From a virus (Duplodnaviria; Heunggongvirae; Uroviricota; Caudoviricetes): a stretch of 48,718 bases of DNA. The translations under genes and the position numbers were made by a program. Each line of letters opens with the position of its first letter. Within the stretch, counting starts at the first letter, position 1. The stretch lies in the IMG/VR virus record IMGVR_UViG_2597489870_000007. The stretch is one strand, 5' to 3'. A model generated the notes under the pieces. The model saw only the letters and a list, made by a program, of their open reading frames with translations. It was not told where the DNA came from and did no database searches. This document shows positions 35,603-37,973 of the stretch, one piece after another.

Positions 35603-36096
35603 TAAGCCCCCACGTAATTCCCTGACAGATACCACTCTTCACCCGATGCAGCGCGCTTGCTGCTTTTCCGTAAGCACCGCTCACGATGCGCCAGAAAATT
35701 GTTTCGTTCTGGCTGGGAGTGGCTTTCACGGAATGCCGCCATCCACACCGTTGCAGCTCGACGGAATAAGCCCCTGGACTCCAGTTCTTCAGCCTGGCGG
35801 GTCAGGCACAAAATCACCCGGGGGTCGTTAGTGCCGACATAGAAATTGCGCACAGGTCTGGTTTCACGAACAGATTGTGGTTCCGGCTCCTGCGCTCTCT
35901 CAGTCAGGCGCGGGAAATGTCTGCGTGTATCTCCTTCACAACGGTGAGCCACACGCCCACTCTGACGTAACTTGCTTGCTGACTGCAGAACGCGCTGCCG
36001 TGAGTAACCAGCAAAAGCATCCGCAATGTCTCCGGAAGTACACCCCGGATGGGCTTCAATGAATTTCTGAACTTCATTCAAAAGACTCATGATCAC
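35602..36096 (-). CDS. Hypothetical protein (164 aa), replication/nin module
   Basis: ORF translationally coupled to neighbours on both sides; Arg-rich; no family recognised. Confidence 0.5.
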   Translation of the reverse strand: MIMSLLNEVQKFIEAHPGCTSGDIADAFAGYSRQRVLQSASKLRQSGRVAHRCEGDTRRHFPRLTERAQEPEPQSVRETRPVRNFYVGTNDPRVILCLTRQAEELESRGLFRRAATVWMAAFRESHSQPERNNFLAHRERCLRKSSKRAASGEEWYLSGNYVGA

Positions 36097-36911
36097 CCCC
36101 TGAATCCTGCCGGGATCTGGCTGTAGTCCACGTTGTCGTAACTGGATTTGAAGTACGGGTCCTCACGTCTGGCTGCAGATACCGCAGGAACTTCCCAGGA
36201 TTCTTCGAAATGACGATCCGGACCAAAGAACGTGACAGCCTGTTTCACAAATTGTGTGCCGCTGTTACCCATCGCAGATACCCAGCCCGCATAGCGTTTC
36301 ACACCTTCCAGCATGGTTTCGGGGTTTACCCCCTCATTCAAACGGGCTTTCCAGGCTTTGAAGGCTGCAGATTTTGAATTGCCACCAGCACGTTTGGGAT
36401 ATGCCAGCCATGCCTGCTCAAACTCCGGAGAATATTCCGGTCGGTTTGAACGAACTCGCACGGACTCATCAACTGATGCACCAACAGCTATTGGTTCATT
36501 GACTGGTTCTTTGACTGGTTCAAAAGAGTGACTGGTTCTGGGTGAATCTCCTGCACTACCCCCTGGTGCAACTCCTGCACTACCTGGTGAATTTGCTGCA
36601 CCAGATAGTGAATTATTTGCACTACCACCTAGTGAATCTCCTGCACCATCCAGATGAAGGAGATAGATATTACTTGAGTTACCTTTTTCACCTTTCCGGG
36701 TGACTTTTTTTACCAGCCCGGACTCACAAAGGGCCGCAATATGATTCATCACAGAACGTTTGCTAATCTCGCACTGGTCAGCAATATGCTGGTAGCTGGG
36801 CCAGCACTCACCCTGATCGCTGGCATTATCAGCCAGCTTGATCAGAACCAGTTTTCGCAATGGATTACCCACTCGAATTTTCATCGCTTTAACCATCAGC
36901 TCCATACTCAT
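36093..36911 (-). CDS. Replication initiator, O-like (N-terminal wHTH, Gly/Ser/Ala linker, C-terminal domain)
   Basis: 272-aa ORF with N-terminal HTH (LVLIKLADNASDQGECWPSYQHIADQCEISKRSVMNHIAALCESGLVKKV); four iteron-like direct repeats lie inside its linker-coding region, as for lambda O and ori-lambda. Confidence 0.6.
   Translation of the reverse strand: MSMELMVKAMKIRVGNPLRKLVLIKLADNASDQGECWPSYQHIADQCEISKRSVMNHIAALCESGLVKKVTRKGEKGNSSNIYLLHLDGAGDSLGGSANNSLSGAANSPGSAGVAPGGSAGDSPRTSHSFEPVKEPVNEPIAVGASVDESVRVRSNRPEYSPEFEQAWLAYPKRAGGNSKSAAFKAWKARLNEGVNPETMLEGVKRYAGWVSAMGNSGTQFVKQAVTFFGPDRHFEESWEVPAVSAARREDPYFKSSYDNVDYSQIPAGFRG
36541..36650. repeat. Putative replication origin iterons (4 direct repeats of about 20 bp)
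   Basis: GGTGAATCTCCTGCACTACC (36541), GGTGAATTTGCTGCACCAGAT (36586), AGTGAATTATTTGCACTACC (36607), AGTGAATCTCCTGCACCATC (36631); a moderately AT-rich tract follows at 36651..36720 and three GACTGGTTC repeats lie at 36501..36538. Confidence 0.55.
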
Positions 36912-37144
36912 GCTGCACCTCCGAGATGCTTCATGTTTTTTCCGGAGCGAAAGGTTATAAGCGGCATACTGACGCGGTAATTACGGCCCAGCGGTTCACA
37001 AATCACCTTCTGACATTCACGGTCAACCAGGCTAACACGTAGAACATGCCCTGCAGGCGTGGTGTACCACTGCCCAACTGTAGGAATTGATGTTTTTTTA
37101 CGCTGAAATAAACGGTAAATGTTGAGGATCAACGGATTAAGCAT
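36908..37144 (-). CDS. Hypothetical protein (78 aa)
   Basis: ORF-track ORF overlapping both neighbours by a few nucleotides, suggesting translational coupling within the early-right operon. Confidence 0.4.
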   Translation of the reverse strand: MLNPLILNIYRLFQRKKTSIPTVGQWYTTPAGHVLRVSLVDRECQKVICEPLGRNYRVSMPLITFRSGKNMKHLGGAA

Positions 37145-37973
37145 GACGATGCCCTCCGCTGATATTCAGGAGACGGTGAATATGAAAATTAGCCTTATCC
37201 GCCAGACGAATACGTTCAGCCTGCAAGTTAATAAGGGTTTCTACCAGAACCTGATGCGCCTGCGGATCCGAAAGAGTTACCTTGCGCAGAGCACGTAGTG
37301 CAGTTGTTACATAACTGAGTTTATGTAAGTCTTCATCATTCAGACGAGTGAGGGCTGGGACAGTAGCCATGATGGCAGCCTCCTTGATCGGTGAAATACT
37401 TCCACCACCGGAAACGCCAATTTCGCTGGTGGTGAACTGAACGGGGTTGGCGTAACCGGTGATCAAGGAAACCGGCGCATCTTTCGATGCCCCCGCCCAG
37501 CCCACCATAACTTTGATGTGAGCAAATGCGGACGATAAAAAAGACGCTGGCGCGTCATATATCGCCTTGATCAATTCCAGGACGCCAATCCCGGCACCCG
37601 CTTTATAAGGTGCCTGAACAGTGTAACGTCCCGGAATGGCAGAATCAATGTGCTGGTGGTCCTTCACACTCAACAAAATCACGCCTGAATTTCCACAAAG
37701 GACTAAAGCACTCATGCGGGTAGTCTTTGCGAAGATAGATAACGCGCTGTGTTTCTGGTTCCCAACGAATAACATGGACATAAAGCCCTCTTCCGTCACG
37801 AAACCAGCGGTTAAGTTCCCGCACAACTCGCCCCCCACAGTCAGGTAAAGTTCTCTGTGGTTACTTACAGCCAGGTGATTTGGTAATCTGCATTCATGCC
37901 GTAACAACAGGTGTTCAGCGACACTGACCACCAGCTGTTGCGACAAACGGTTATTTGCCGTTAAACTGTTCAT
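37137..37973 (-). CDS. Hypothetical protein (278 aa), early-right operon
   Basis: Long ORF tightly packed between neighbours; no Walker A motif; family not recognised. Confidence 0.5.
   Translation of the reverse strand: MNSLTANNRLSQQLVVSVAEHLLLRHECRLPNHLAVSNHRELYLTVGGELCGNLTAGFVTEEGFMSMLFVGNQKHSALSIFAKTTRMSALVLCGNSGVILLSVKDHQHIDSAIPGRYTVQAPYKAGAGIGVLELIKAIYDAPASFLSSAFAHIKVMVGWAGASKDAPVSLITGYANPVQFTTSEIGVSGGGSISPIKEAAIMATVPALTRLNDEDLHKLSYVTTALRALRKVTLSDPQAHQVLVETLINLQAERIRLADKANFHIHRLLNISGGHRHA

What the first reader, a model, noticed from the sequence alone, without database searches (positions are those of the whole stretch)
36491..36720. Iteron-type origin embedded in the linker of the O-like initiator gene
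Four roughly 20-bp direct repeats (GGTGAAT/AGTGAAT followed by CTCCTGCAC-like cores) and a following AT-rich tract lie inside the region coding the Gly/Ser/Ala linker, mirroring ori-lambda within O. This supports the initiator call and marks the likely replication start.
Basis: partly seen in the sequence, partly recalled or inferred. Interest (0 to 1): 0.5.

Follow-up and report, generated by a model that had tools for sequence, protein, structure and literature searches.

The report
Replication origin inside phage initiator gene
The repeats are real DNA-level binding sites (iterons) for the phage's own replication initiator, set inside that initiator's gene next to a strikingly conserved 35-bp box; this is a well-supported but unsurprising lambda-style origin in a different initiator family.

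Summary
There are five repeats, not four. Each is a 15-bp dyad, GTGmA-N5-TkCAC, at 36542-36646, spaced 24/21/21/24 bp. These are the only five matches in the 48.7-kb window (0.32 expected).

They lie in the disordered linker of a 272-aa initiator (36093-36911, minus strand) that has an HTH_36/DnaD_N-type winged-helix N-domain.

About 200 homologues from E. coli to Pseudomonas and Vibrio show the repeats are selected as DNA, not as peptide:
- Arrays sit at the same place, with spacings of only 21-24 bp.
- 47 of 86 genes carry copies in two reading frames.
- Half-site sequence tracks recognition-helix residues 52, 53, 55 and 56.
- Codon-shuffled controls give no arrays.

Just 3' of the iterons in gene sense (36488-36541) is a family-wide box, AGAAyCAGTCACTCTTTTGAACCAGTCAAtGAACC. 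Its codons are essentially invariant (AGA 67/67, AGT 68/68) although host GC3 ranges from 0.31 to 0.89. It is also the GC minimum of the gene.

The initiator is not a detectable lambda O homologue. The architecture matches lambda O/ori-lambda and pSK41 RepA_N. Origin firing is inferred, not shown.

The parts
36093..36911 (-). Replication initiator gene (272 aa): N-terminal winged helix, disordered linker, C-terminal helical domain. It is the only replication gene of this phage type.
   Evidence: ORF. Pfam HTH_36 at 1.8e-11 and PHROG 270 'replication initiation protein' at 1.8e-88. 98-99% identical to the SfV orf39, mEp460 gp43 and cdtI 'replication protein' genes. mEp460 encodes no other replication gene. 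No phage DnaB, DnaC, P, O or primase-helicase relative in the window.
36648..36911 (-). Coding region of the N-terminal winged-helix DNA-binding domain (residues 1-88). The predicted recognition helix is residues 51-63 and the wing strands are 67-73 and 79-85.
   Evidence: AF2 model pLDDT 77-90 over residues 1-88. HTH_36 at 2e-12 and DnaD_N at 27.8 bits against a cut-off of 27. Foldseek gives weak hits (best E 7e-3, none at E <= 0.001) to winged-helix proteins, including DnaD-N 2v79 and 4pql/4pt7 ('Structure of initiator').
36632..36646 (.). Iteron 1 (closest to the N-domain coding part): GTGCAGGAGATTCAC on the coding strand.
36608..36622 (.). Iteron 2: GTGCAAATAATTCAC on the coding strand. 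Half-sites are kept and the centre has diverged.
36587..36601 (.). Iteron 3: GTGCAGCAAATTCAC on the coding strand.
36566..36580 (.). Iteron 4: GTGCAGGAGTTGCAC on the coding strand. This copy is a perfect GTGCA/TGCAC dyad.
36542..36556 (.). Iteron 5 (box-proximal): GTGCAGGAGATTCAC on the coding strand. In nearly all homologues this copy starts 17 bp upstream of the conserved box and 24 bp after the previous iteron.
36488..36541 (.). Family-wide conserved box. On the coding strand it reads CC-AGAACCAGTCAC-TCTTTT-GAACCAGTCAAA-GAACCAGTCAAT-GAACCAATAG and encodes P-RTSHSFEPVKEPVNEPI. The 10-mer GAACCAGTCA is used in two reading frames (RTSH and EPVK). This is the candidate DNA-unwinding or helicase-entry element.
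   Evidence: Exact 10-mers. Position matrix over 85 homologues. Codon invariance 0.92 against 0.53 in the N-domain. GC minimum of the gene family-wide. In 116 of 116 untruncated viral contigs it lies in this N-domain family. Unit number varies from 1 to 4 in close relatives.
36650..36720 (.). It is locally the least stable duplex and so an alternative unwinding site in this phage, but it is not conserved as DNA.
   Evidence: GC 0.42. The 40-mer 36652-36691 is in the top 0.7% least stable of the window. Synonymous codons vary freely across 74 homologues. Only a weak family-wide GC dip.
36096..36440 (-). Coding region of the C-terminal domain (about residues 158-272). It is an exchangeable module, presumed to recruit the replicative helicase.
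   Evidence: PHROG hits to C-terminal parts of 'replication protein' and 'DnaD-like helicase loader' families. It is found fused to unrelated N-domains, and this N-domain is found fused to unrelated C-domains. AF2 gives three helices at 162-214 with moderate confidence. No Pfam family.

Best explanation
This is the phage's theta-type replication origin, nested in the linker-coding part of its initiator gene.

Shown by comparative sequence analysis:
- The five 15-bp dyads are selected as DNA sites, not as peptide repeats.
- Their half-site sequence tracks the recognition helix of the protein's own N-terminal winged helix.
- A 35-bp box immediately downstream in gene sense is conserved at DNA level across the whole family.

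Inferred mechanism:
- Dimers of the N-domain bind each dyad.
- Because the sites are 21-24 bp apart (about two helical turns), they lie on one face of the helix and assemble a bent, cooperative nucleoprotein complex like the lambda O-some.
- The torsional stress melts a flanking low-stability segment. The conserved GAACCAGTCA-repeat box at 36488-36541 is the most likely site, and the AT tract at 36650-36691 is the alternative.
- The exchangeable C-terminal domain then brings in the replicative helicase. Here that would be host DnaB with DnaC, since the phage encodes no helicase or loader.

The protein segment encoded by the origin is a disordered tether. Its sequence is largely dictated by the cis-acting DNA.
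For: Site statistics in the window:
- All five matches to the degenerate iteron in 48.7 kb lie in a 105-bp stretch (0.32 expected).

Arrays in homologues:
- In 86 homologues from species-dereplicated genomes and named phages, 79 have at least 2 copies in register, with a mode of 5.
- All 283 spacings are 21, 22, 23 or 24 bp.
- 47 of 86 genes have copies in two reading frames, as 23+22 bp pairs. Examples are VTESH versus GDRESH in Vibrio phage D79 and VTQSH versus SDTES in mEp044.
- Phased chains of at least 3 copies occur in 59 of 76 genes, always within nt 240-480 of the gene. Codon-shuffled controls give 0 of 76.

Specificity classes:
- RSV(M/I)NH goes with GTGmA/TkCAC.
- RSVMRH and RTAMRH go with GTGAC/GTCAC.
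- KSAVRxH goes with TGCCA/TGGCA.
- RSTVK(S/V/G)H goes with GGGCA/TGCCC.
- RSTVRKH goes with TAGGCC...
- TTAINH goes with GTGTA/TACAC.
- Over 100 unique N-domains, the columns most informative about iteron class are 52, 53, 55 and 56 in the predicted recognition helix and 71 in the wing.

Variation among close relatives:
- Iteron cores vary at 6 of 74 sites and spacers at 9 of 30 (Fisher p=0.0105).
- Copy number drifts from 4 to 8.

The box:
- Codons are invariant (AGA 67/67, AGT 68/68, TCT 62/62, GAA 63/63) while conserved residues of the N-domain use their top codon only 53% of the time. Host GC3 ranges 0.31-0.89.
- It is the GC minimum of the gene, 0.36-0.43 against about 0.52, and 0.39-0.47 against 0.63-0.67 in high-GC hosts.

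Protein and context:
- The linker (residues 91-157) is predicted disordered.
- An unrelated N-domain fused to the same C-domain carries its own five iterons in three frames plus its own AT-rich run at the same position.
- mEp460, a complete deposited phage genome (E. coli host), has this gene as its only replication gene.

Precedents:
- Lambda has four 18-bp iterons at 20-24 bp spacing followed by an AT-rich region inside O.
- In pSK41 the ori lies centrally within rep and the linker peptide is dispensable. [quoted passage not shown]
Against: - No experiment on this family was found, and origin firing is inferred from architecture and analogy.
- Covariation between iteron class and helix residues is confounded by tight physical linkage and shared descent.
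- No DnaA box lies near the site.
- The box is only moderately AT-rich (45% GC in this window). In this phage the least stable duplex is on the other side of the iterons, so which flank melts is undecided.
- The plasmid database holds no small plasmid that uses this module as its sole replicon.
- The single-stranded DNA fold of the region is not significantly more stable than shuffled sequence (z = -1.65).
Confidence: 0.8

Rival explanations
1. The repeats are only a low-complexity Gly/Ser/Ala linker built by in-frame slippage of codons. Under this reading the DNA has no cis function.
For: In this window all five copies share one reading frame, with spacings that are multiples of 3. The linker is disordered. 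Copy number drifts among close relatives, as expected for slippage.
Against: - 47 of 86 homologues keep the DNA unit in two reading frames that encode different peptides.
- The half-sites are conserved while the 5-bp centre and the spacers vary.
- Spacing is restricted to 21-24 bp.
- The peptide differs completely between specificity classes while the array geometry is constant.
- Codon-shuffled controls give no arrays.
Confidence: 0.02
2. The dyads are binding sites for the N-domain, but they serve autoregulation or copy control (a transcriptional roadblock or handcuffing). Initiation would then take place elsewhere or by another route, such as recombination-dependent replication.
For: Iterons of plasmids double as control sites (general knowledge). 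No DnaA box or strongly AT-rich 13-mer set lies nearby. There is no direct origin-mapping data.
Against: - No other copy of the site exists in the 48.7-kb window that could serve as a separate origin.
- The array is always followed at a fixed 17 bp by a DNA-level conserved, relatively AT-rich box, which a pure operator would not need.
- An unrelated N-domain at the same position has the same layout of iterons followed by an AT-rich run.
- The layout matches experimentally proven origins in lambda O and pSK41 rep (PMC5703833).
Confidence: 0.1
3. This rival concerns the box only. The conserved 35-bp box may not be the unwinding or helicase-entry element. It could instead be a recombination linker at the junction of the N- and C-modules, a binding site for a host factor, or a translational signal. 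One candidate signal is a -1 slip on UCU-UUU-GA that would end in UGA and produce an N-domain-only protein.
For: The box sits exactly where C-terminal domains are swapped. It is only 36-45% GC, not extreme. The sequence U-CUU-UUG-A allows tRNA-Phe to re-pair in the -1 frame, with UGA as the next codon (reading of the sequence). In this phage the opposite flank is less stable.
Against: - DNA identity at every codon position over 35 bp, from Pseudomonas to Vibrio, is hard to maintain by recombination benefit alone.
- The TTT codon is among the less conserved positions of the box (60-65 of 85), so a slip site cannot explain the whole element.
- The 10-mer recurs as a direct repeat with variable copy number, as the repeated 13-mers of known unwinding elements do (general knowledge).
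- The box travels with the N-domain and iterons, not with any C-domain.
Confidence: 0.25

Closest known systems
Phage lambda O protein and ori-lambda (also reported for phi80, 82 and Stx phages of the O/P type)
   Same: - The origin lies inside the initiator gene, between the parts encoding the DNA-binding N-domain and the recruiting C-domain.
- It has 4-6 dyad-symmetric iterons at about 20-24 bp spacing.
- A less stable region follows in gene sense (PMC12663957, PMC7466680).
- The N-domain plus iterons form a specificity module, and the C-domain is exchangeable.
   Different: - There is no detectable sequence homology: no Phage_rep_O hit, and hhalign gives 5% probability.
- The core is 15 bp rather than 18 bp.
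- There is no P-type loader gene.
- The flanking element is a sequence-conserved GAACCAGTCA-repeat box rather than a purine-rich A/T run.
RepA_N plasmid initiators of Firmicutes (pSK41, pTZ2162) and the chimeric pPR9 Rep with a PF13730 N-domain
   Same: - The layout has three parts: a DnaD-like winged-helix NTD that binds repeats, a central linker whose coding DNA is the ori, and a host-specific CTD.
- The linker peptide is dispensable.
[quoted passage not shown]
- pPR9 shows that an HTH_36 (PF13730) N-domain plus origin segment works as a replicon (PMC5703833).
- Foldseek places 4pql/4pt7 ('Structure of initiator') and DnaD-N 2v79 among the weak winged-helix matches.
   Different: - There is no RepA_N (PF06970) hit.
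- The hosts are Gammaproteobacteria and the replicon is a lambdoid phage, not a plasmid.
- The iterons lack the central poly-A tract described for RepA_N.
- The conserved box has no described counterpart.
Other phage initiators reported to contain their own origin (P22 gp18, SPP1 G38P/oriL, lactococcal and Lactobacillus phage Rep proteins)
   Same: The principle is the same: origin repeats inside the initiator gene. This comparison rests on my own knowledge of the literature and was not checked here.
   Different: These are different protein families and repeat sequences.

Membership tests
Lambda O family (Pfam Phage_rep_O, PF04492) | N-terminal domain matches the Phage_rep_O profile or is homologous to lambda O | tested here: not met
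   There is no Phage_rep_O hit among 24 families listed at E<=10. hhalign of the N-domain alignment against lambda O gives 5% probability over 9 columns. tblastn of lambda O against the window gives no hit.
Lambda O family (Pfam Phage_rep_O, PF04492) | Partner P-type helicase loader gene immediately downstream | tested here: not met
   The downstream gene is PerC-like. tblastn with lambda P, DnaC-like and DnaB-like phage proteins finds nothing in the window.
Iteron-type theta origin nested in the initiator gene (lambda-like architecture) | At least three phased direct repeats, each with internal dyad symmetry, inside the initiator gene between the two domains | tested here: met
   There are five copies at 24/21/21/24 bp in the linker. 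The same layout occurs in 79 of 86 homologues.
Iteron-type theta origin nested in the initiator gene (lambda-like architecture) | Repeats are constrained as DNA and are specific to the cognate initiator | tested here: met
   The evidence is frame switching in 47 of 86 genes, six or more helix/half-site classes, the most informative columns lying in the recognition helix, and cores less variable than spacers. This is indirect, because binding itself was not measured.
Iteron-type theta origin nested in the initiator gene (lambda-like architecture) | Adjacent easily melted region (DNA unwinding element) | tested here: inconclusive
   There are two candidates. The conserved box is the family-wide GC minimum. 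The non-conserved AT tract is the local stability minimum in this phage.
Iteron-type theta origin nested in the initiator gene (lambda-like architecture) | Supports initiator-dependent replication | not testable with these tools
   This needs a plasmid replication assay, marker-frequency analysis or 2D gels. The plasmid database shows only phage-sized circles of about 40 kb.
HTH_36 (PF13730) helix-turn-helix proteins | Profile match above the gathering score | tested here: met
   44.1 bits for the whole protein and 47.1 bits for the isolated N-domain, against a cut-off of 25.
DnaD N-terminal domain-like winged helix (PF21984) | Profile match above the gathering score and a matching fold | tested here: inconclusive
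   24.3 bits for the whole protein (below 27) and 27.8 bits for the isolated domain (just above). Foldseek hit to 2v79 at E about 1.5e-2, among many generic winged helices.
RepA_N plasmid initiators (PF06970) | RepA_N profile match | tested here: not met
   Not among the Pfam hits at E<=10. Only weak structural similarity to 4pql and 4pt7.

The most novel reading that the evidence does not exclude
The 35-bp box AGAAyCAGTCACTCTTTTGAACCAGTCAAtGAACC may be a previously undescribed, sequence-specific origin core, either a helicase-entry or unwinding element or a site for a factor shared across Gammaproteobacteria. Thousands of phages with otherwise different iteron specificities and different C-terminal recruiting domains would then share it. 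If so, the invariant peptide RTSHSFEPV(N/K)EP in more than 5000 protein clusters is a by-product of a cis-acting DNA element rather than a protein motif.
Probability: 0.4. Interest if true: 0.6.

Novelty: new member of a known kind. Interest (0 to 1): 0.45.

Why it matters
- It locates the probable origin of a very common replication module of enterobacterial, Pseudomonas, Vibrio, Aeromonas and Shewanella prophages. This includes the SfV, ST64B, cdtI and mEp460 types and many Stx-converting phages whose replication regions have been catalogued without origins (PMC8951638).
- It gives a readable recognition code: helix positions 52, 53, 55 and 56 against half-site sequence. That code could predict replicon incompatibility or cross-activation between co-resident prophages.
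- It flags a 35-bp element whose conservation is imposed on the protein by the DNA. This is a clean case of overlapping cis and coding constraints and a handle for finding what opens or loads at such 'initiator-solo' origins.
- It is also a caution for annotation, because the repeated Gly/Ser/Ala 'linker' is not a protein feature.

Tried and rejected
- **DnaA boxes:** TTWTNCACA has three matches in the window, none near the gene and no more than chance.
rejected as a conserved element, because its synonymous sites vary freely. It is kept as a phage-specific alternative because it is the local stability minimum.
- **Solved structures by sequence:** nothing relevant.
- **Foldseek against PDB:** only generic winged-helix matches with E above 7e-3. 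It was used solely to confirm the fold class.
- **C-terminal domain:** no Pfam or NCBIfam family.
- **Plasmid database:** searched for a small plasmid using this module as sole replicon. Only phage-sized circles and chromosomal records were found.
- **Rfam on 35.5-37.5 kb:** nothing credible at the repeats (a mir-875 match at 22 bits against an 84-bit gathering score is chance).
- **Promoter and terminator scan:** no promoter-like site. One terminator-like hairpin lies on the non-coding strand at 36688-36703, within chance expectation.
- **Single-stranded DNA fold of 36480-36700:** not significant, z = -1.65.
- **Literature:** eight full-text searches found no description of this origin. The Eru papers list HTH_36 proteins but no ori. 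Weigel & Seitz 2006 and Weaver et al. 2009, which might bear on priority, are not held.
- **First viral-contig scan:** it returned only N-domains 99-100% identical to the query. That was useful for copy-number variation but not for diversity.

Full report
**What is in the window**

The finding lies inside a 272-aa ORF on the minus strand (36093-36911).
- Residues 17-67 match Pfam HTH_36 (1.8e-11). The isolated N-domain also just passes DnaD_N (27.8 bits against a cut-off of 27).
- PHROGs place the protein in 'replication initiation protein' families (phrog_270, 1.8e-88).
- The gene is 98-99% identical to the annotated replication genes of SfV (orf39), mEp460 (gp43), cdtI and many Stx2c/Stx2a phages, and 89% identical to that of ST64B.
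- It sits downstream of a divergent cI-like repressor, a CII (CP76)-like gene and an Ash-family gene. It is followed by PerC-like, Dam, LexA-like and RusA genes.

**The observation**

On the + strand the degenerate unit GTGMANNNNNTKCAC occurs exactly five times in the 48.7-kb window. The starts are 36542, 36566, 36587, 36608 and 36632, all on the same strand, against a chance expectation of 0.32.

Spacings are 24, 21, 21 and 24 bp. Each unit is a 5-N5-5 imperfect dyad, GTGCA-N5-T(T/G)CAC on the coding strand.

Next to the array, at 36488-36541, are three exact and one degenerate copy of GAACCAGTCA on the coding strand, spaced 17, 12 and 12 bp. The 17-bp step puts the same 10-mer in two reading frames. 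It encodes RTSH in one frame and EPV(K/N) in the other.

**Peptide repeat or DNA site?**

I fetched four sets of homologues:
- 13 named phage homologues;
- 80 viral contigs with N-domains 99-100% identical;
- 80 loci from species-dereplicated genomes, including Pseudomonas, Enterobacter, Aeromonas, Shewanella, Xenorhabdus and Marinomonas;
- 120 viral contigs found through the box sequence.

Arrays are present across the family. In 86 diverse homologues, 79 carry at least two 15-bp units in register immediately after the winged-helix coding part, with a mode of five.

The geometry is fixed. All 283 spacings are 21 (106), 22 (43), 23 (43) or 24 (91) bp.

The DNA unit survives frame changes. In 47 of 86 genes the copies lie in two reading frames, as a 23-bp step followed by a 22-bp step. 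The same DNA unit therefore encodes different peptides, for example VTESH versus GDRESH in Vibrio phage D79 and VTQSH versus SDTES in mEp044.

Controls are clean. Phased chains of three or more units occur in 59 of 76 genes, always within nt 240-480. They occur in 0 of 76 codon-shuffled controls.

Close relatives show the same constraint. Among 58 haplotypes, iteron cores vary at 6 of 74 positions and inter-iteron spacers at 9 of 30 (p=0.0105). Copy number ranges from 4 to 8. E. coli protein lengths of 242-302 aa suggest a still wider range.

**Who binds the sites?**

The half-site sequence falls into at least six classes, and each class goes with a particular recognition-helix signature:

| Residues 52-57 | Iteron |
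|---|---|
| RSV(M/I)NH | GTGmA-N5-TkCAC (the window's class) |
| RSVMRH, RTAMRH | GTGAC-N5-GTCAC |
| KSAVRxH | TGCCA-N5-TGGCA |
| RSTVK(S/V/G)H | GGGCA-N5-TGCCC |
| RSTVRKH | TAGGCC... |
| TTAINH | GTGTA-N5-TACAC |

I saw no exceptions in the two independent samples.

The AF2 model gives a confident winged helix for residues 1-88 (pLDDT 77-90). The third helix spans 51-63 and the wing strands are 67-73 and 79-85.

Over 100 unique N-domains, the columns most informative about iteron class are 55, 52, 56 and 53 in that helix and 71 in the wing. The normalised score is highest at 52 (0.94) and 53 (0.75). This is what sequence-specific recognition by the protein's own N-domain predicts. The caveat is that sites and helix are tightly linked and share descent.

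The linker (residues 91-157), which the iterons and the box encode, is predicted disordered (pLDDT below 50).

**The conserved box**

Aligned on its start, the 35-bp sequence AGAAyCAGTCACTCTTTTGAACCAGTCAAtGAACC is nearly invariant in 85 homologues. It begins 17 bp after the start of the last iteron.

Codon choice in the box is fixed:
- AGA 67/67, AGT 68/68, TCT 62/62 and GAA 63/63;
- mean top-codon fraction 0.92 for the box, against 0.53 at equally conserved residues of the N-domain in the same genes;
- host GC3 spans 0.31-0.89.

The box is the GC minimum of the gene family-wide, at 0.36-0.43 against about 0.52. In high-GC hosts it is 0.39-0.47 against 0.63-0.67.

It travels with this N-domain whatever the C-domain. 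In 116 of 116 untruncated viral contigs carrying the exact box, it lies within this family. It is absent from a Stx2d phage initiator that has an unrelated N-domain fused to the same C-domain. That gene instead has its own five iterons at 23-24 bp spacing in three frames, followed by its own AT-rich run.

The number of GAACCAGTCAAW units varies from 1 to 4 among close relatives.

The tract at 36650-36720 encodes the wing (KGNSSNIYLLHLD). Across 74 homologues its synonymous sites vary freely, so it is not a conserved DNA element.

In this particular phage, however, 36652-36691 is the least stable 40-mer near the origin (top 0.7% of the window). The box region ranks in the top 4.6%. Which flank opens cannot be decided computationally.

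**Context for mechanism**

mEp460, a complete deposited phage genome (E. coli host), encodes no other replication protein. The window has no relative of phage DnaB-type helicases, DnaC-type loaders, lambda P, lambda O or a primase-helicase.

Relatives with other C-domains are followed by DnaB-like helicases, a DnaC-like protein or a primase-helicase.

This fits a modular initiator. The N-domain, iterons and box form the origin-specificity module. The C-domain is the module that recruits a helicase system, which here is presumably host DnaB with DnaC.

No DnaA box lies nearby. No Rfam family, promoter-like site or significant single-strand fold explains the region.

**Most likely mechanism**

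Established by comparative sequence analysis: the dyads are DNA-level sites tied to the N-domain, and the box is a DNA-level element tied to the same module.

Inferred:
- dimers bind each dyad;
- the two-turn phasing puts them on one face and builds a bent, O-some-like complex;
- a flank melts, with the box favoured and the AT tract as the alternative;
- the C-domain loads the host helicase.

The encoded linker peptide is a tether whose sequence the DNA dictates.

**Comparison with known systems**

Lambda has four 18-bp iterons at 20, 24 and 23 bp spacing inside O, followed in gene sense by an AT-rich region. The architecture is the same here. The protein is not detectably homologous, and no P gene is present.

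In pSK41-type RepA_N plasmids, a DnaD-like winged-helix NTD binds four Rep boxes located centrally within rep. The ori-encoded central domain is a dispensable linker, and the CTD is host-specific. [quoted passage not shown]

The window's protein matches PF13730 but not PF06970.

The Stx-phage replication-region surveys list HTH_36 proteins (Eru5/6/8/11/13) without describing an origin (PMC8951638). I found no paper describing this origin or the box. Two reviews that might do so are not held.

**Verdict**

It is a new, very widespread member of a known kind of origin, so it is not surprising to a specialist.

The frame-switching iterons, the readable helix/half-site code and the codon-invariant 35-bp box are the parts worth following up. 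Origin firing itself remains to be shown.

Noticed in passing
window 37425-37500 (-), probably extending beyond 37500: An Rfam C4 antisense RNA (RF01695, the P1/P7 immunity-type RNA) matches at 61.6 bits against a gathering score of 45. The match is cut at its 5' end by my search boundary. It lies inside or next to the Ash-family/antirepressor-like ORF at 37137-37973, which suggests an RNA-controlled antirepressor module just upstream of the replication gene.
   Followed up: no
window 36908-36911 and 36093-36096: The initiator ORF overlaps its neighbours by 4 nt at both ends. The upstream 78-aa ORF ends in an ATGA overlap, and the downstream PerC-like ORF starts in a GTGA overlap. This suggests translational coupling along the early operon.
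   Followed up: no
window 36518-36526 (coding strand UCU UUU GAA within the box): tRNA-Phe on UUU can re-pair perfectly one base back (UUU), and the next -1 frame codon is UGA. A -1 slip would therefore give an N-domain-plus-linker protein of about 131 aa. This is speculative. The TTT codon is among the less conserved positions of the box (60-65 of 85).
   Followed up: partly
L176 (Stx2d phage Stx2_112808) 397-1305: This initiator has an unrelated N-domain and the same C-domain (72% identical). It carries five repeats of its own (GGAGAAGGGAAAACC-like) at 23, 24, 23 and 23 bp spacing in all three reading frames, followed by an AT-rich run and then a DNA helicase gene. Origins nested in the linker appear to be a general rule for these modular initiators.
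   Followed up: partly
P0001-P0042; L005 cdtI; L013 PhiR63_1: E. coli and Shigella versions of the protein range from 242 to 302 aa. The cases examined (cdtI with 8 iterons, PhiR63_1 with one extra GAACCAGTCAAA unit) differ only in repeat copy number. Origin copy-number polymorphism may be common between otherwise near-identical prophages.
   Followed up: partly
window 35925-35939 (+): A lone iteron-like 15-mer, GTGTATCTCCTTCAC, has 2 mismatches to the consensus and does not fit the degenerate pattern. It lies inside the downstream PerC-like gene and is probably chance, given 1.39 expected hits at up to 3 mismatches.
   Followed up: no
Arsenophonus nasoniae, Piscirickettsia, Pasteurella and E. 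coli 'plasmids' of 38-54 kb: Many records filed as plasmids that carry this N-domain are phage-sized circles. Ten are in Arsenophonus nasoniae alone. They may be excised or episomal phages that replicate from this type of origin.
   Followed up: no
L012 mEp044 gene nt 355-400; L008 Vibrio phage D79: Two divergent homologues lack the full box. mEp044 still has AACCAGTCA and AACCAGTAA motifs around a TATATA run just after its iterons, which hints that ACCAGTCA is the functional core of the box.
   Followed up: no
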